Source: Bdellovibrionales bacterium (GTDB lineage Bacteria > Bdellovibrionota > Bdellovibrionia > Bdellovibrionales > UBA1609). From it: a stretch of DNA of 64,000 bases. Numbering within the stretch: the first letter of the stretch is position 1; each line of letters opens with the position of its first letter. Of this stretch, positions 31,339 through 64,000 are shown piece after piece. The DNA lies in NCBI GenBank assembly GCA_965219095.1, contig CBDCMT010000001.1, positions 1,107,262 through 1,171,261 of the forward strand. Reading direction: 5' to 3'. Position numbers and translations under genes: made by a program. A model generated the notes under the pieces. The model saw nothing but the letters and a program-made list of their open reading frames with translations. It made no database searches and was not told the DNA's origin.

Positions 31339-32033
31339 GTTTTATTATTATTTACATTTTTACGTTCTCCATAAGGTTTATATTTTTTCCCAGACTTGAA
31401 AACACCTAAAGTTAAAGCTGCAATTCTTCTAGTTGGTAGCGTTTCTAGCAGTATGTGGTGGTAAATTTTTTTTGATCAATTCTTCATAAAAATCATTAAA
31501 TTCATTGTTATTTCCTATAACTGAGAGTGCAGCTGTCTTAAAAACACTTTTCATTTGTGGGCAAAACCTAGACTTCTTAGTTCCATAAGACCTTCCACCA
31601 CTCATTTTATGTAGCTTTACAAGTCCGCAGTCCACTCCACCAGGAATTACGTTTAAATCAGTGAGGCACTACAACCCTATCTTCTTACCTTTCAGAGTTT
31701 TTAAATAGGCACGAAGATTCCCAAGATCTGAAATCGTGTCCATAGTCTTAATATCTTTTGATTTGCCTGTCATCCTTGAAATGGCCATGTTACTTTGTGC
31801 CTAATCTACGGCTATATAGTGATCATACATTTTATTTTCCTCCTTTGTTGGTTGTTCATAAATAAAGTCTTGAAATCCTATTTTACATCTTTTTTTTGCT
31901 TTTTCCTTTGAGGCCTTAAAAAGCAGGACAGCTAAAGGGTTTAGAATTTGTCTCGAAAAGCTCACCTCCTTCTGCAAGTACTTTAGGGTCACTATCATGG
32001 CTTAAACCAGTGACCTGTCTTTTTGATTTACCG
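31339..32033 (-). mobile_element. IS110-family element, internally deleted derivative (J1)
   Basis: The left-end leader and first ~45 codons (MYDHYIAVD...) are joined directly to the last ~100 codons (…VKLHKMSGGRSYGTKKSRF…). The central ~1 kb present in the 61521+ copy is missing. Confidence 0.75.
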
Positions 32034-32185
32034 TCGAATTAATTTCTGTAATTGGTATTACTTGTAGTTTTATAAGAGCTTAGCTTTTGTACTTACTTTT
32101 GAAAGCCAGGATTTAATTGTTGTATTATCTCTAGCGACATCCTTTCTGGTACTTTTTTATCTGGTACTTTCTTATTTTCCTGTTA

Positions 32186-37352: not shown

Positions 37353-37568
37353 GCTGACTTTTTCATGGAGAAGAGAGTGGAACTACGCAATCCAAGTTTA
37401 AACATAAATATCTAAGTTATTTTTGCACAGATCCTAATGAAATATTTCAGGGTCACTGTGGTGCTTAAACTGGTGACTTTCTTTTTAATTTAAAGGAAAA
37501 AATTGAAGGAAAATGTATGACAATTTTTGTCACTTTTTTCTGTCATAACCATGAAACATCTTACATTA

Positions 37569-42088: not shown

Positions 42089-43764
42089 CCACGCTAAAAA
42101 TGATCACTACTGGTTTTCATTTCTCTGAGAAGTTTTTTGTCAATAGCCTTTATGATATTTTCTTGAATTTTGCTTAGAGCAACTGTTCGAGACATTTGAA
42201 TTTTTTTCTTTTTATCAGAAAAATAAACTTTGTACAGGTTCTCTAGCTCTTTTAATGCTTGAATTGGCGAAATATCCAAATTGTAGAGATGCAACTTTAA
42301 TACGGAAAGCAGAAGATAAGATAAATAACAAATAAAAACATGAGCCACTACTCTGTTGCAAAGCCAGTGTCGCACAGGATTTAAATTTGTAACTCCTTTT
42401 AAAATTCTGAAAGCTCTTTCTACGACATCTTTATCAAAATAAAATTTGACCATATCTTTACCAGAAATATTCTTTGTAGAAAATATACAGGAGTACCCAT
42501 CAAATTCTTCTGCTTTTTTCAGTTCCCGATCCTTGATCTTTCCTGTGGGAGTTAGATATTTTTTCAGCCCCTCCTTAATGGACTTGTTTTGAGATAGACA
42601 GTTTTGAGCAGCAACTATCTCATCATATCTCGCCTCTCGAATTGTATCCTTTCTTTTATGGTTGTAGCAGATTGCCAGTTTTCCTTTAACTTGGCCAAAT
42701 GTATAATTCATGCTTTTAACGTAAAAAGTATTCTTGTTCAAAATTACCCTATTTGAAACGTTTACTATAGAACCGGACTTTAAAAAATTTCGTACTGTCT
42801 TCTTTTCAACCTCTCTCATAGGAATTCCGCACAATGTATTCCAACCCAATCCCCCTATGTGAGAAAGGTTTTTAGACGATGCTATGCCTCGATCATACAC
42901 CAATAGGCCAGAACGAAGATTGTATTCTGAAAAACTACTAACAAGTGCCGTCAATGTCCTGCTATCGTGAATGTTACCCTTAAAGGTCTTGTGAAAAACA
43001 GGAATCCCTTCTTCTTGAGTTACAGCAAGACCTATCTGAATCAGAGGACTCTTCCTTTTCCCATCTTTGCTGTACCCTGGGTTACCTAGTTGACATTTAC
43101 TTCCATAAAAATAAGTGTTAGTAACATCATAGACAATTTTATTAGATGATAACTTGTATTCTTTTTTAACATTTTCAAAAATACGTTTCTGCAAAGATGG
43201 AGCCTTGGATTCGTTAAGCTGATCGAGAGCTGAAAAAAGCCTTCTTTCAGTCAGCCCATCTAAGTTTAAAATGCTGTTTAAATCTGTTCGTTCATACCAT
43301 GATGGCATATTATTGACGCTTCTGTAATCCAAGCAATGAGCATAGACCATACTTAGTATTTCATCTGAATAATTGCCAAGAACTTCGGGAAGACCAACTT
43401 TTTTTGCAAGGGCATGAAGAACAATCAAGGGACCACTGATCTTAACTTTATCGAATTGAATGTTCTCGGAAGATATAGAGATAACACGCTTATGATTCAC
43501 TTCCTTTCCAAGATATCTCAAGTACTTCTGTACGACCTTGCCCTTGACCCGGACATTTTTCACCTCTGCTAAATAAGTGCTGCCTCCTCTTTTAATCTTC
43601 TTTATAAAACTCATAGTAGTTACCATTATGGTAACTACTTAAAAATAGAAGGGCAAGAGCTTTTCACAGAAAAAAAGGGCAATAAGCCCATTTTTACTGG
43701 AAAACTTCCATCTTATGGAACTTATCTTACTGTTAGAGCAATGTAGTGATCATTTTTAGCGTGG
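42089..43764 (-). mobile_element. IS1634-like element (D-b), complete
   Basis: Perfect 22-bp inverted repeats CCACGCTAAAAATGATCACTAC (42089-42110) and GTAGTGATCATTTTTAGCGTGG (43743-43764). Confidence 0.85.
42094..43626 (-). CDS. IS1634-family (IS4-superfamily DDE) transposase
   Basis: 510 aa. N-terminus …FIKKIKRGGSTYLAEVKNVRVKGKVVQKYLRYLGKE. Also YDVTNTYFYG, LVYDRGIAS and FRILKGVTNLNPVRH. Confidence 0.85.
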   Translation of the reverse strand: MVTTMSFIKKIKRGGSTYLAEVKNVRVKGKVVQKYLRYLGKEVNHKRVISISSENIQFDKVKISGPLIVLHALAKKVGLPEVLGNYSDEILSMVYAHCLDYRSVNNMPSWYERTDLNSILNLDGLTERRLFSALDQLNESKAPSLQKRIFENVKKEYKLSSNKIVYDVTNTYFYGSKCQLGNPGYSKDGKRKSPLIQIGLAVTQEEGIPVFHKTFKGNIHDSRTLTALVSSFSEYNLRSGLLVYDRGIASSKNLSHIGGLGWNTLCGIPMREVEKKTVRNFLKSGSIVNVSNRVILNKNTFYVKSMNYTFGQVKGKLAICYNHKRKDTIREARYDEIVAAQNCLSQNKSIKEGLKKYLTPTGKIKDRELKKAEEFDGYSCIFSTKNISGKDMVKFYFDKDVVERAFRILKGVTNLNPVRHWLCNRVVAHVFICYLSYLLLSVLKLHLYNLDISPIQALKELENLYKVYFSDKKKKIQMSRTVALSKIQENIIKAIDKKLLREMKTSSDHF

Positions 43765-44075: not shown

Positions 44076-44204
44076 CCTTTGAGGCCTTAAAAACCAGGCC
44101 AGCTAAAGGGTTTAGAATTTGTCTCGAAAAGCTCACCTCCTTCTGCAAGTACTTTAGGGTCACTATCATGGCTTAAACCAGTGACCTGTCTTTTTGATTT
44201 ACCG
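44076..44204 (-). mobile_element. IS110-family left-end (leader) fragment
   Basis: Aligns with 31905-32033 and with the reverse complement of 61521-61650. It ends in ...CTTTTTGATTTACCG. Confidence 0.75.
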
Positions 44205-44226
44205 TTATATGATCTGACAGTTACCC
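44205..44226 (-). repeat. Fragment of the IS481 right-terminal repeat, fused to the IS110 leader
   Basis: TTATATGATCTGACAGTTACCC matches 1105-1127. Confidence 0.75.
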
Positions 44227-44993: not shown

Positions 44994-46036
44994 TATAGTG
45001 CTTCCGCTTAGGTTTTCAGTTTTTTTTGAGTTGAGGTCTAGTTTTTATTCTAAGGCCTTGATAAAAAATCATTTATTTTTAAAAATAGTTTCATATGTCA
45101 GGGTTTCTATCAAAAAAAGAGCGAAAAGATTTACTCTATGAACTATCTCTAGAGAAAAATCTTAAATACGTAAAAAGGATTATGACAATTCTCCATTTAG
45201 ATAAAGGTGAGTTGTGTAAAGATATTTCCCGTTTTCTTTTCATTGATGAGGGCACGATAAGAGCCTGTAGAAATCGTTATAACAAAGGCGGGATAGAGTG
45301 TTTAATCAACGACAATTACAATCCTAAAAGGTCCTTTTTAACTAAGAAAGAGGAGAAAATGCTTTTAAAGGAATTAGAGAAAAGAATTTTTCCATCATCA
45401 CAGGCCCTTATTCAGTTCATTGAGGAGAATTTTGGTGTTACGTACTTTAACAAGTGGTGTAATTGATCTTCTCCATCGCCTTGGTTTTTCTTATAAAAAA
45501 GCCACAGCGATACCGAGTAAGGTAAAGAAAGAAAAGCAGGAAAAGTTTGTGCGTAAATACAAGAGAATTAAGAAGAAAGACGGTCCTGTTTACTTTGCTG
45601 ATTCCACACATCCTGAGTGGGGCCCTACGATTTCATATGGTTGGATAAGAGAGGGTAAGAAGTTTGAAGTGAAGACCAATTCAGGCTGGAGAAAAAGAGT
45701 GAATGTTTGTGAAGCTATTGAGATCAATAGTTTGAAGACGATAGTCAGGAGTTATAAGACAGTTAACGAAGTTTTTCTATGTGATATGCTCTATCATATT
45801 CATTAAGAAGTATTCCGATGAAAAAGAGATTCATCTTATCTTAGATGGGGCCGGATACAATAGATCGAAGTCTGTCAAGAAGTTAGCAAAAGAGTTGAAT
45901 ATAAAACTTGTTTATCTTCCTCCGTACTCACCGAATTTAAATCCTATAGAAAGGCTTTGGAAGTTTATGAAAAAAGAGGTCACGGCGAATCGATATTATG
46001 AAAACTATGACGATTTCAAGGGAAGTTTAAGTCAAT
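44994..46036 (+). mobile_element. IS630-like lineage A element, second copy, 3'-truncated
   Basis: The left terminus TATAGTGCTTCCGCTTAGG at 44994 lies 20 bp after the stop of the membrane protein gene. Homology to 32186-33327 ends at 46036. Confidence 0.8.
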
Positions 46037-46038
46037 AA
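45095..46038 (+). pseudogene. IS630-family transposase, same three-frame partition as 32287-33305, and truncated
   Basis: ORFs 45095-45466, 45420-45806 and 45781-46038 are nearly identical to the first copy. Confidence 0.8.
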
Positions 46039-46175
46039 AAAATGGAAAGGAAATGCAGGAAGTTTTTTCTTAGGTGATTAGAATATTCGTGACCGTATGC
46101 AAAAAAAAATTTTTATATTTTTTGTAAATGGAGAAGTGTTTTTTCTTGACATACTTTTTGATAGATACTCTAAAG

Positions 46176-61384: not shown

Positions 61385-61724
61385 GGCATGTCGTCAATTA
61401 ATCTAACCAAACCATAAAGAAGCTAACATAACTTAAAGCTAAGAAGTGTTTTCTCTTTTTGATAGACATACCGGGAGACCTTTGAGTGCATATTGATAAC
61501 AATTACAGAAATTAATTCGACGGTAAATCAAAAAGACAGGTCACTGGTTTAAGCCATGATAGTGACCCTAAAGTACTTGCAGAAGGAGGTGAGCTTTTCG
61601 AGACAAATTCTAAACCCTTTAGCTGGCCTGGTTTTTAAGGCCTCAAAGGGAAAAGCAAAAAAAAGATGTAAAATAGGATTTCAAGACTTTATTTATAAAT
61701 AAACCAACAAAGGAGGAAAATAAA

Positions 61725-62236
61725 ATGTATGATCACTATATAGCCGTAGATTGGGCACAAAGTAACATGGCCATTTCAAGGATGACAGGCAAATCAAAAG
61801 ATATTAAGAAAGACTATGGACACGATTTCAGATCTTGGGAATCTTCGTGCCTATTTAAAAACTCTGAAAGGTAAGAAGATATTGACTATCGAAGAGACTA
61901 CAACTTCGATAGTGGTTGTATTCAGAATTAAAGGATAGTGTTGATGAGTTCATAGTCTGTGATCCTCTTCGGAACAAACTTTTAAGTGAAGGGGCTAAAA
62001 CTGATAAAATTGATGCTGAAAAACTTGTTTTATTGTTACGCTCTGGCCTTTTGAAACCAGTTTTTCACTCAGGTGATGAATTCATTTACCTTCGTAAGAT
62101 TGTCAGTGGGTATGAAGATGTGGTTAAAAGAGGAGTTCGTGTTAAAAACCAAAGATCAGCTCTGTTTCGAGCTTCCCATCTTGATGCTAAGAAGCAGACT
62201 CAATTAAAACGGGCAGAAGAGATATATTTGTTCTAG
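61725..62236 (+). pseudogene. IS110-family transposase, N-terminal part (frameshifted, then interrupted)
   Basis: MYDHYIAVDWAQSNMAISRM… A 4-nt insertion relative to copy J1 (AAGAAAGACTA vs AAGACTA) shifts the frame. Track ORF 61916-62236 is a later segment that ends at the IS630 TA target. Confidence 0.75.
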
Positions 62237-63691
62237 TGTTCTGACCAGTAAATTTTTTCACAATTTTCAAGCCTTTAATCCAGGTCATTTTATTAAATTA
62301 TTTTTATATTAAAAAGAATAAAAGTGAAATGTTTAGAGTTATACCAATTCCAAAAGTTAATTCTACATTTTCATGTATAAGTTTGGATTTTTACTTCTAG
62401 AAATTTATAACTTTTAAGTATGGGTAAAGAGTGTATCAAATTCATTGGAAAGATATGATTTTCTAATGTTTATATACAATTTAGTTTACAGGCTCTTACA
62501 GGCTCTTACAGGCTCGTCTCATTTTTTATAATGGAACTTTTCTCTGGCTGATTTTCTTGAAAAATTCCATTTTATTATAATCTTCCGTCTGTTCATAATA
62601 TTCACCCAAGCCTTGGTTCTTTTTCTTAAAGTTTCTATGTCAGGTATTCTTGATTTTCCTAAACATTGACGAGAGTACATATTGATTGCAATTTCTGCTT
62701 GATTTAACCAACTTCCATGACTCGGAGTATAATGAACCTCAAAGCGAGACCATAGATGCAAACCTCGATCTTTTCCATAAAAATCAGTAAGACTTTTTTT
62801 TCTATGAGTGTTCAAATTATCCATAACTAGAACAATCTTCTTGGAATCAGAATAATGTCTCTCAACAGAAGATAAAAACTTAGCAAAATCCGGACCTGTC
62901 CTTCTCTCTGTTACCTTATTCATATAAAAACCTCTCTTAGGCTCCACAGCACAGAAAACATTTGCTGTACCCTCTCTTTTATACTCATAATCTACTTTTT
63001 TTACTTCCGAGGGATGACAACCCGATGGAGGACGAACATCATCAAGTAACTGAAGAGGCTTTTCATCAATACACACAACAGGCTTTCCTTTAATCGGAGG
63101 CTTCTCATACACTTTCAAAACATCCTCCATCCTCTCTATAAATTCATCATTAAGCTCTGGTACACACCAACTCTTCTGTTGCCAAGGTTTTAGATCATGT
63201 TCTAAAAGAATAATCCTAACTTTTTCTTTGCTAATAGAGTCTACAATCTTGTTTTTTTCTGCCCTCTCTTTAATGAGCTCTAAAGTCCATCGATCAAAGC
63301 CCTCCGGAGGATCTGAGCAGACTATAGCTATAATCTTTGACTTTATGCGATCATCAAACTTTGGAGGTTTTCCAGGACGAGGATCATCTTCAAGAGCTTT
63401 TTTCAGCCCAGAATTCTCATAGTTTTTTTGGATGTTGAAAACAGTTCTAGGAGTTATCTCTAAGTAATCTGCTGTCTCTATGGCAGTTAAATTTTTGTTC
63501 CTTAAGTTTAGAACATTGGCTCGATATATGGCTCTTGGATTTTTAGACTTCTTTATAATTTTAAGAATTTCTCTCTTATCTTTTGGCTTTAATAAATTTA
63601 ACATATGAGTATTAAAACATAAAAAAAAAATAAATAAAATGACCTGGATTAAAGGCTTGAAAATTATGAAAAAAATTACTGGTCAGAACAC
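62236..63691 (-). mobile_element. IS630-like lineage C element, complete, with TA duplication
   Basis: ~55-bp inverted repeats start with GTGTTCTGACCAGTAA at 62236 and at 63691 (reverse complement). TA lies at 62234-62235 and 63692-63693. Confidence 0.9.
62519..63604 (-). CDS. IS630-family (Tc1/mariner-like DDE_3) transposase
   Basis: 361 aa, intact, with HTH motifs at the N-terminus, VVCIDEKPLQLL, VLVMDNLNTH and YTPSHGSWLNQAEI. Confidence 0.9.
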   Translation of the reverse strand: MLNLLKPKDKREILKIIKKSKNPRAIYRANVLNLRNKNLTAIETADYLEITPRTVFNIQKNYENSGLKKALEDDPRPGKPPKFDDRIKSKIIAIVCSDPPEGFDRWTLELIKERAEKNKIVDSISKEKVRIILLEHDLKPWQQKSWCVPELNDEFIERMEDVLKVYEKPPIKGKPVVCIDEKPLQLLDDVRPPSGCHPSEVKKVDYEYKREGTANVFCAVEPKRGFYMNKVTERRTGPDFAKFLSSVERHYSDSKKIVLVMDNLNTHRKKSLTDFYGKDRGLHLWSRFEVHYTPSHGSWLNQAEIAINMYSRQCLGKSRIPDIETLRKRTKAWVNIMNRRKIIIKWNFSRKSAREKFHYKK

Positions 63692-63693
63692 TA

Positions 63694-64000
63694 GAAGGCT
63701 TAGATAAAGCTATCAGTTCTTATGGGGAGGAGAAAGCACGTTATGAAGCAGAGTTTAAGAGGCTAAGTAAAAAACACAAAGATATTAGAAATCTTAATAG
63801 CATTCCAGGAATTGGTTCTATCAAGGCTATCAAGATTGTAGCCAGGGTTGTAGTGCCTCACCGATTTAAACGTAATTTCTGGTGGAGTGGACTGCGGACT
63901 TGTAAAGCTACATAAAATGAGTGGTGGAAGGTCTTATGGAACTAAGAAGTCTAGATTTTGTCCACAAATGAAAAGTGTTTTTAAGATAGCTGCACTCTCA
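63694..64000 (+). pseudogene. IS110-family transposase, C-terminal part (continues beyond the window, with frame breaks)
   Basis: EGLDKAISSYGEEKARYEAEFKRLSKKHKDIRNLNSIPGIGSIKAIKIVARVVVPHRF resembles the IS116/IS110/IS902 C-terminal domain. The later frames are interrupted. Confidence 0.75.

What the first reader, a model, noticed from the sequence alone, without database searches (positions are those of the whole stretch)
61500..61725. IS110-family left end repeatedly fused to terminal inverted repeats of other IS: candidate bridge-RNA-guided targeting
The ~204-nt non-coding left end (61521-61724) abuts the IS630-like lineage B terminal repeat at the same nucleotide in two copies. These junctions are CAATTACAGAAATTAATTCGA|CGGTAAATC at 61520/61521, and its reverse complement at 32033/32034. 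A third left-end fragment (44076-44204) is instead fused inside the IS481 terminal repeat (…GATTTACCG|TTATATGATCTGACAGTTACCC at 44204/44205). The 1-2 nt at each junction (CG) could belong to either partner, as expected for a shared core. The left end contains a conserved hairpin (GGTCAC…GTGACC, 61539-67), which is also kept in a diverged fragment at 37440-37495. Established knowledge: IS110-family recombinases lack inverted repeats and TSDs and often insert into repeats. For IS621/IS110 members, a structured non-coding bridge RNA from the element end specifies both target and donor. Inference: this leader may encode such an RNA programmed for IS termini.
Basis: partly seen in the sequence, partly recalled or inferred. 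Interest (0 to 1): 0.55.

Follow-up and report, generated by a model that had tools for sequence, protein, structure and literature searches.

The report
Dead IS1111-type element targeting IS ends
The flagged stretch is the untranslated leader of a decayed IS110/IS1111-family insertion sequence. The element did insert by RNA guidance into the ends of other insertion sequences, but its guide RNA lies at the other end, downstream of the recombinase gene.

Summary
Genome-wide there are about 43 left ends and 37 right ends of one ~1.6-kb IS110-family element. They sit at four recurrent sites, each also present as many empty copies. All four share an AC core and lie 10-80 nt inside the ends of other repeat elements: an IS630-like TIR, a second site in that same element, an IS481/IS3-like end, and one more repeat.

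The leader (61521-61724) is not the guide. It has no complementarity to target or donor, folds no better than shuffles, and is not conserved in relatives. The element has IS1111-group anatomy: a 9-bp subterminal inverted repeat and a 385-nt right end against a 204-nt left end. The right end encodes a two-loop RNA with strong covariation in 50 relatives.

In that RNA, a segment complementary to the right flank lies 5' of a segment identical to the left flank. Within this genome three guide variants differ by clustered substitutions that switch complementarity between target sites.

All copies share four frameshifts, so the family is extinct here. The window copy's guide region lies about 270-300 nt past the window end. 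This is a new member of a known kind. An earlier scan note on other copies in this genome reached the same verdict on the leader.

The parts
61499..61520 (+). Outer ~22 nt of the terminal inverted repeat of a 1.4-kb IS630-like element. This is the left half of target T1.
   Evidence: More than 80 empty copies of this repeat continue straight into ...AC-ATTTTTATG. The host element is TA-flanked and carries an IS630-type DDE remnant.
61521..61724 (+). Left end (leader) of the IS1111-type element. It holds the shared core C, the donor right half GGTAAAT, the 9-bp subterminal inverted repeat ATCAAAAAG, the -10-like hexamer of the circle-junction promoter, local hairpins and the Shine-Dalgarno sequence. 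It is not a guide RNA.
61725..62236 (+). 5' part of the recombinase pseudogene (DEDD domain, ATG at 61726). It is frameshifted.
   Evidence: PF01548 / NF033542 hits on the pieces. Frame breaks against the intact relative P0003.
62237..63690 (-). A different IS630-family element with an open 361-aa ORF (62519-63604). It is inserted into the recombinase pseudogene.
   Evidence: The alignment of this copy to the reference copy breaks at element positions 709-712 and resumes 1454 nt later. ORF list. Terminal repeats are visible.
63691..64000 (+). Continuation of the recombinase pseudogene, which runs off the window. The right end of this copy follows beyond the window: the guide segments lie 271-304 nt past the window end and the element ends about 580 nt past it.
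31339..32033 (-). Second copy: left end plus an internally deleted recombinase pseudogene, at the same T1 junction.
32034..32056 (-). IS630-like terminal repeat (T1 left half) next to the second copy.
44076..44204 (-). Left-end fragment (element positions 1-130) inserted at target T2.
44205..44226 (-). Left half of target T2. It lies inside the end of an IS481/IS3-like element. In empty copies 10 more nt (GTCTATTACA) follow before the element ends.
46033..46165 (+). Right-end fragment (element positions ~1458-1593) with the -35 TTGACA and the subterminal repeat, followed by a T3-like right flank. It lacks the guide region.
37445..37490 (-). Diverged left-end fragment that retains the first hairpin.

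Best explanation
The region is the 5' leader of one of about 40 decayed copies of an IS1111-group member of the IS110 family of RNA-guided DEDD recombinases.

Inferred life cycle. The element excised as a circle. Joining right end to left end creates a TTGACA-N17-TAAATC promoter that transcribes the leader, the recombinase gene and the 385-nt right end. The right end folds into a two-module RNA.

Target module. [quoted passage not shown] On its 3' side it carries about 6-8 nt identical to the left half of the target plus the AC core.

Donor module. The second module carries AUUUAC, complementary to the element's first bases, and GAUAGAC, identical to its last bases. These recognise the circle junction.

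Outcome. Recombination at the AC core places the element without a target duplication. In this genome the guides were programmed for sites just inside the ends of other insertion sequences. Guide variants a, b and c differ by clustered substitutions that retarget the element.

Role of the leader. It contributes only the donor half-site, the subterminal repeat, the -10 box and the 5' UTR.

Shown here: boundaries, empty and occupied sites, the position of the guides, guide-target complementarity and covariation, RNA covariation in relatives, and the decay of all copies.

Inferred: the circle intermediate, transcription, processing, and action of guide RNAs in trans on other copies.
For: Boundaries and targets.
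- Four target classes each have many empty copies and occupied left and right junctions, always at an AC core: T1 more than 80 empties, T3 27, T2 19, T5 5.
- Simple insertions with matching left and right flanks exist for T1, T3 and T5.

IS1111 anatomy.
- There is a 9-bp subterminal repeat (ATCAAAAAG / CTTTTTGAT).
- The left end is 204 nt and the right end 385 nt.
- The recombinase pieces hit PF01548, PF02371 and NF033542.

Guides in this genome.
- Variant a has AUAAAAAUG, a 9-nt complement of C-ATTTTTAT in T1. It also has AUUUCGAC, which matches 6-8 nt of the left halves of T1 and T3.
- Variant b differs by 3 substitutions within 5 nt. It reads UUAGAGUG, an 8-nt complement of C-ACTCTAA in T3. 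All three b copies whose guide region and right flank were read in the alignment are at T3, one of them a simple T3/T3 insertion.
- Variant c changes both segments. Its GUUAAC matches the T5 left half.
- Both ends of the IS630-like host share the same left half. All 7 T1 right junctions are at the end whose right half matches variant a.

Relatives.
- The same scaffold lies 50-70 nt after the stop codon.
- The right-guide window is complementary to its own right flank over 7 nt or more in 27 of 41 unique loci, against 0.4% of 1540 non-cognate pairs.
- The left-guide window matches its own left flank over 6 nt or more in 14 of 32, against 1.6%.
- The donor guide covaries with the right-end tip: GATAGAC here, CATAGAC in L025.

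RNA structure. The covariance model hits 50 loci. 87.5% of cells are paired against 39-47% when partners are slid, and 41 of 44 pairs show changes on both sides.

Segment order. The top-strand match lies 5' of the bottom-strand match, as reported for IS1111 seekRNAs (PMC11187229, section 9).
Against: - No intact recombinase gene of this family exists in the assembly, which is 94% complete. All fuller copies share four frame breaks. No copy can be active now, and spread after inactivation needs a lost helper or gene conversion.
- A copy's own guide does not always match its own site. Variant a copies sit at T5 and at T1-left/T3-right hybrids, and a variant b-like copy sits at T1.
- Variant c has no clean cognate. 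It matches the left half of T5 and matches the right half of T2 only with a 1-nt bulge.
- Rfam has no matching family.
- The alignment used for pair counts was fitted to the model.
Confidence: 0.86

Rival explanations
1. First reader's model. The ~204-nt left-end leader encodes an IS621-like bridge RNA whose loops pair with the IS termini and with the donor.
For: The leader is fairly long for an IS1111-type element, 204 nt against about 110 nt in distant relatives. It contains two local hairpins. The first hairpin survives in a diverged fragment. A few IS1111 relatives are reported to have long non-coding regions at both ends (PMC11187229, section 6).
Against: - No match of 6 nt or more to any target or donor guide rule lies in the leader, while the right end holds them all.
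- The fold z-score is -0.3.
- There is no Rfam hit.
- The interior is not conserved in the 83%-identical relative L027.
- In the 60-nt left-end query (and the first 30 nt read), copies at T1, T2 and T3 are identical or nearly so, so the leader cannot specify the different targets.
- The covariance model of the family RNA finds nothing in the window.
Confidence: 0.04
2. The recurrent junction reflects co-mobilisation. One ancient insertion into an IS630-like element was then copied around as a composite by the IS630 transposase or by duplication, rather than arising from repeated site-specific insertion.
For: - Two copies, including the window copy, are hybrids carrying the outer 23 nt of one IS630-like repeat on the left and the other repeat about 80 nt to the right. 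They are TA-flanked and might be mobilisable as a unit.
- Left junctions at T1 (23) far outnumber right junctions at T1 (7).
- One pair of copies is a true segmental duplicate.
- All copies share the same frameshifts.
Against: - Four unrelated target classes all use the same AC core.
- Simple insertions exist with the host body continuing on the right.
- Guide variants a and b are exact complements of two different sites.
- Relatives in other phyla obey the same guide-flank rule.
- Complete IS630-like hosts have no ORF longer than 76 aa.

Composite movement may still have contributed some copies.
Confidence: 0.08
3. Target choice is made by the recombinase protein alone, recognising a short motif around AC. 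The right-end matches are coincidental.
For: The only feature common to all four targets is the AC core. The family is dead here, so no function can be observed.
Against: Cognate complementary runs of 7-9 nt occur at a fixed scaffold position in 27 of 41 loci, against 0.4% in controls. Clustered substitutions retarget the element within this genome. Published experiments show RNA dependence in this family (PMC11187229; PMC11208160).
Confidence: 0.02

Closest known systems
IS1111-group elements with a right-end seekRNA / bridge RNA (ISEc11, ISKpn4, ISPa11; PMC11187229, and Fig. 6 of PMC11208160)
   Same: - DEDD recombinase of about 330-337 aa in intact relatives.
- Subterminal inverted repeats.
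- The longer non-coding region lies downstream of the gene.
- A structured RNA with the top-strand match 5' of the bottom-strand match.
- No target duplication beyond a shared core.
   Different: - The sequence is only distantly related: phmmer of relative P0003 against PDB gives IS621 at E = 3e-4.
- The leader is unusually long at 204 nt.
- All copies here are frameshifted.
- Three guide variants coexist in one genome.
[quoted passage not shown] 10 in PMC11208160)
   Same: An IS1111-type element whose specific target lies inside the terminal repeat of another transposable element, at one fixed position and in one orientation.
   Different: The host elements are different (IS630-like, IS481/IS3-like and another repeat). 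Several target classes are used by sibling copies. I did not compare sequences with IS4321 or IS5075 directly.
IS621 bridge RNA (IS110 group; PMC11208160, PMC11208158)
   Same: Two-loop logic. One loop pairs with both strands of the target around a core, the other with the donor junction. The promoter is assembled at the circle junction.
   Different: The IS621 RNA is encoded in the left end, with the left guide 5' of the right guide. Here the RNA is in the right end and the order is reversed. The core is AC here and CT in IS621.

Membership tests
IS110 family (DEDD RNA-guided recombinases) | N-terminal DEDD/RuvC-like domain (PF01548) | tested here: met
   Pieces score 31-36 bits against a cut-off of 29. 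NF033542 matches three consecutive pieces.
IS110 family (DEDD RNA-guided recombinases) | C-terminal PF02371 domain with the catalytic S-G motif | tested here: inconclusive
   The own piece scores 20.9 bits against a cut-off of 21.3. A ...KMS(S/G)GRSYG... motif is visible. Intact relatives at 70-84% identity carry both domains.
IS110 family (DEDD RNA-guided recombinases) | Intact recombinase gene | tested here: not met
   The longest frame is 133-149 aa. Four frame breaks are shared by the fuller copies. The copies are relics.
IS1111 group | Subterminal inverted repeats of 7-17 bp, with no terminal inverted repeats and no target duplication | tested here: met
   A 9-bp repeat lies at element positions 7-15 and 1582-1590. 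Empty versus occupied sites show only the shared AC.
IS1111 group | The longer non-coding region is downstream of the recombinase gene | tested here: met
   About 385 nt downstream against 204 nt upstream.
IS1111 group | Right-end RNA with a segment complementary to the top strand of the target lying 5' of a segment matching the bottom-strand partner | tested here: met
   Own variants a, b and c. Relatives: 27/41 and 14/32 cognate matches against 0.4% and 1.6% in controls.
IS1111 group | Conserved secondary structure of that RNA | tested here: met
   RNAalifold finds compensatory pairs. On the alignment of 50 sequences, 87.5% of cells are paired against 39-47% when slid, and 41 of 44 pairs change on both sides. 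Caveat: the alignment was fitted to the model.
IS1111 group | The RNA is expressed and bound by the recombinase | not testable with these tools
IS110-group left-end bridge RNA (IS621-like) | Left end longer than right end, encoding loops complementary to target and donor | tested here: not met
   The left end is shorter than the right end. It holds no guide-like match. Fold z = -0.3. There is no model hit in the window.

The most novel reading that the evidence does not exclude
These elements may have been a guild of non-autonomous, guide-diversified hyperparasites of other insertion sequences.

- Frameshifted copies kept spreading because a helper recombinase and sibling guide RNAs acted in trans on a shared donor junction. 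That would explain why a copy's own guide and its own site often disagree.
- The T1-left/T3-right hybrids may have arisen when the recombinase, guided by a sibling RNA, joined an inserted copy's right end to a second site in the same host IS and deleted the host's body. This would be natural half-site or excision-type bridge recombination acting to destroy a competing transposon.
Probability: 0.2. Interest if true: 0.55.

Novelty: new member of a known kind. Interest (0 to 1): 0.35.

Why it matters
The result moves the guide RNA of this element from the flagged leader to the right end. It also gives a clean natural example of guide reprogramming inside one genome: three substitutions within 5 nt of the right guide move the target from one end of an IS630-like element to a site near its other end.

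The same guide-flank rule holds in dozens of uncultured relatives. The covariance model and register found here could be used to read the targets of this little-studied IS1111-type clade.

It does not reveal a new mechanism. The copies here are dead, and IS1111-type elements that aim at the terminal repeats of other transposons are already known.

Tried and rejected
- Rfam scans of the leader and of the right end found only chance-level hits.
- Folding of the leader gave local hairpins but an energy no better than shuffles.
- An exact-match search for guide-like segments in the leader found none.
- A DNA search of 40 related genomes for the element found no real match.
- A search for a repeated cognate site for guide variant c (GTTAAC-GCTATTA type) found none. 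Variant c remains only half explained.
- I considered that the ~22 nt left of the leader belongs to the element itself. I rejected this because about 240 copies of that repeat continue into IS630-like sequence without the element.
- I considered a pre-existing empty MITE joining T1-left directly to T3-right. None exists in the genome.
- A look-up of P0001's contig returned no DNA.
- A promoter scan of an integrated copy found no convincing internal promoter for the right-end RNA.

Full report
**Observation.**
- The left end begins at 61521, directly after the outer ~22 nt of an IS630-like terminal repeat.
- The same junction occurs in reverse complement at 32033/32034.
- A left-end fragment at 44076-44204 abuts an IS481-like end at 44204/44205.
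- A diverged fragment lies at about 37445-37490 on the minus strand.

The window is G000:C2:1107262-1171261 of a 3.1-Mb, 34% G+C genome. BLAST of the 204-nt left end finds about 43 copies. Of these, 23 abut the IS630-like repeat at the identical nucleotide, in 22 different outer contexts. Four abut the IS481-like end and four abut a third site. The recurrence is therefore real and is not segmental duplication.

**Boundaries.** Comparison of copies defines a ~1594-bp element (reference copy C2:1748079-1749672, inside locus L008).
- It begins (C)GGTAAATC and ends ...TTGACATACTTTTTGATAG-AC.
- The leader is 204 nt.
- A recombinase reading frame of about 335 codons follows.
- A non-coding right end of about 385 nt closes the element.
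- A 9-bp subterminal inverted repeat lies at positions 7-15 and 1582-1590.
- Joining right end to left end gives TTGACA, 17 nt, TAAATC. In relatives the same join gives TTGACT-N17-TAAAAT (read). This is the junction promoter known for the family (PMC11208160).

**Targets.** For each flank class I looked for uninterrupted copies.
- T1 lies in the repeat of a 1.4-kb TA-flanked element that carries an IS630-type DDE remnant. It has more than 80 empty copies.
- T3 lies about 80 nt from the other end of that same element. It has 27 empties.
- T2 lies 10 nt inside the end of an IS481/IS3-like element. It has 19 empties.
- T5 lies about 62 nt inside the end of another repeat. It has 5 empties.

In all four, the left half ends in AC and the element's right end also ends in AC, so AC (at least its C) is the shared core.

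Left and right junction counts are as follows.

| Target | Left junctions | Right junctions |
|---|---|---|
| T1 | 23 | 7 |
| T3 | 4 | 15 |
| T2 | 4 | 5-6 |
| T5 | 1 | 3 |

Only about ten left and right ends are still paired. These are simple T1/T1, T3/T3 and T5/T5 insertions, plus hybrids (T1/T3 twice, including the window copy, and T1/T5 once).

**Where the guide is.** The published rule is that the left guide equals the top strand of the left target plus core, and the right guide is the reverse complement of core plus right target. The donor junction follows the same rule (PMC11208160).
- The leader contains no match of 6 nt or more to any of these.
- It folds no better than shuffles, z = -0.3.
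- It has no Rfam match.
- In the 60-nt left-end query (and the first 30 nt read), copies at T1, T2 and T3 are identical or nearly so.

The element's anatomy is that of the IS1111 group: subterminal repeats and a longer downstream non-coding region. In that group the RNA is encoded in the right end, and the top-strand match precedes the bottom-strand match (PMC11208160; PMC11187229).

The right end of the reference copy holds all four guide segments.
- AUAAAAAUG at positions 1289-1297 is a 9-nt complement of C-ATTTTTAT in T1.
- AUUUCGAC at 1315-1322 matches 6-8 nt of the left halves of T1 and T3, including AC.
- AUUUAC near 1350 is the complement of the element's first bases, GTAAAT.
- GAUAGAC at 1410-1416 is identical to the element's last bases.

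**Covariation inside this genome.** I aligned 19 right ends that are otherwise about 98% identical. Three guide variants appear.
- Variant a is as described above.
- Variant b changes 3 of 5 adjacent bases to give UUAGAGUG, an 8-nt complement of C-ACTCTAA in T3. All three b copies whose guide region and right flank were read in the alignment lie at T3. One of them (C1:307486-310843) is a simple T3/T3 insertion.
- Variant c changes both segments. Its left guide, GUUAAC, matches T5. Its right guide matches T2 only with a 1-nt bulge, and no better cognate exists in the genome.

There is also an internal control. Both ends of the IS630-like host share the identical left half, but all 7 T1 right junctions are at the end whose right half matches variant a.

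Concordance is not perfect. Variant a copies sit at T5 and in the T1/T3 hybrids, and a b-like copy sits at T1. I explain this by guide RNAs acting in trans on an identical donor junction and by later recombination between copies. That explanation is an inference.

**Relatives.** Intact recombinases of 330-337 aa at 70-84% identity are common in metagenomes. Eighty genomic loci were fetched.
- In L025 the scaffold is conserved while the guides differ. Its right guide, AUUCAAGCG, is a perfect 9-nt complement of its own right flank. Its donor guide changed from G to C together with its right-end tip.
- Across loci, the right-guide window is complementary to its own right flank over 7 nt or more in 27 of 41 unique cases, against 0.4% of 1540 non-cognate pairs. 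The register is always fixed and includes the last base of the element.
- The left-guide window matches the bases just before the left end over 6 nt or more in 14 of 32, against 1.6%.
- A covariance model built from nine sequences hits 50 loci, always just downstream of the gene, and hits nothing in the window.
- On that alignment, 87.5% of cells are paired against 39-47% when partners are slid. Forty-one of 44 pairs show changes on both sides. The caveat is that the alignment was fitted to the model.
- The leader of the closest relative, L027, shares only the first ~20 nt and the ribosome-binding region with ours.

**State of the family here.** No copy has an open recombinase frame. Whole-genome searches with PF01548 and PF02371 find only fragments. 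Against the intact relative P0003, the fuller copies share frame breaks near residues 65, 164, 233 and 300, whatever their target class or guide variant. Only a diverged, truncated lineage (C2:522033) lacks the first break. Either the copies spread after inactivation with a helper that is now lost, or gene conversion homogenised them.

**In the window.**
- The copy at 61521 is a T1-left/T3-right hybrid of guide variant a.
- It is interrupted at 62237-63690 by a different IS630-family element with an open 361-aa ORF.
- Its guide segments lie 271-304 nt beyond the window end.
- The only right-end fragment in the window (46033-46165) lacks the guide region.

**Comparison and verdict.** The element works like, and meets the testable criteria of, an IS1111-group member of the IS110 family.
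- Its closest functional analogue is IS4321/IS5075, which target terminal repeats of Tn21-family transposons. I take this from the citation in PMC11208160 and did not compare sequences.
- It is only remotely similar to IS621.
The placement of the RNA in the leader is wrong.
Here I tested the verdict independently and extended it with the guide-target covariation.

Noticed in passing
window 62237-63690: An IS630-family element with an open 361-aa transposase ORF (62519-63604, minus strand) and ~28-nt terminal repeats. It is inserted in the IS1111-type pseudogene with a TA at both sides. It belongs to a different lineage from the 1.4-kb host of targets T1 and T3.
   Followed up: partly
genome-wide; e.g. 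window 44076-44204 and locus L017: About two thirds of the left ends carry a 55-58-nt insertion after element position ~130 (BLAST splits into 1-130 and 125-204). Both leader forms occur at T1. The nature of the insertion is unknown.
   Followed up: no
G000 C2:705041 (outside the window): A right end (variant tip ...GATAGAT) directly abuts an inverted left-end tip plus the T1 repeat. This is a head-to-head junction that may record recombination between two copies.
   Followed up: no
loci L030-L040 (one Desulfatiglandales MAG): Eleven copies of one relative share identical guides and the same right-flank motif. The last base of the right end varies (T in 8, C in 1, A in 1) while the left flank ends in C. 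The core may therefore be resolved differently at the two junctions in that lineage.
   Followed up: no
L026 4888-5643 and L025 2240-2470: In one relative the right-end RNA region is separated from the recombinase gene by a reverse-transcriptase (RVT_1) gene, which is probably a group II intron. In another, the leader carries a G+C-rich ~230-nt insert, and gene callers place a 136-aa ORF there.
   Followed up: no
window 42094-43626 (minus) and 45095-46038 (plus): An open 510-aa frame lies at 42094-43626 (family not tested). A three-piece, IS630-like transposase pseudogene (LPPYSPNLNPIERLW motif) lies at 45095-46038. Both are next to the left-end and right-end fragments, illustrating the nested IS landscape.
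   Followed up: no
G000 C2:522033-523300 (locus L001): A diverged lineage of the same element (left end 92% identical). It keeps the N-terminal 147 residues in frame, lacks the first shared frameshift, and is then truncated. It sits at a unique, non-IS flank.
   Followed up: partly
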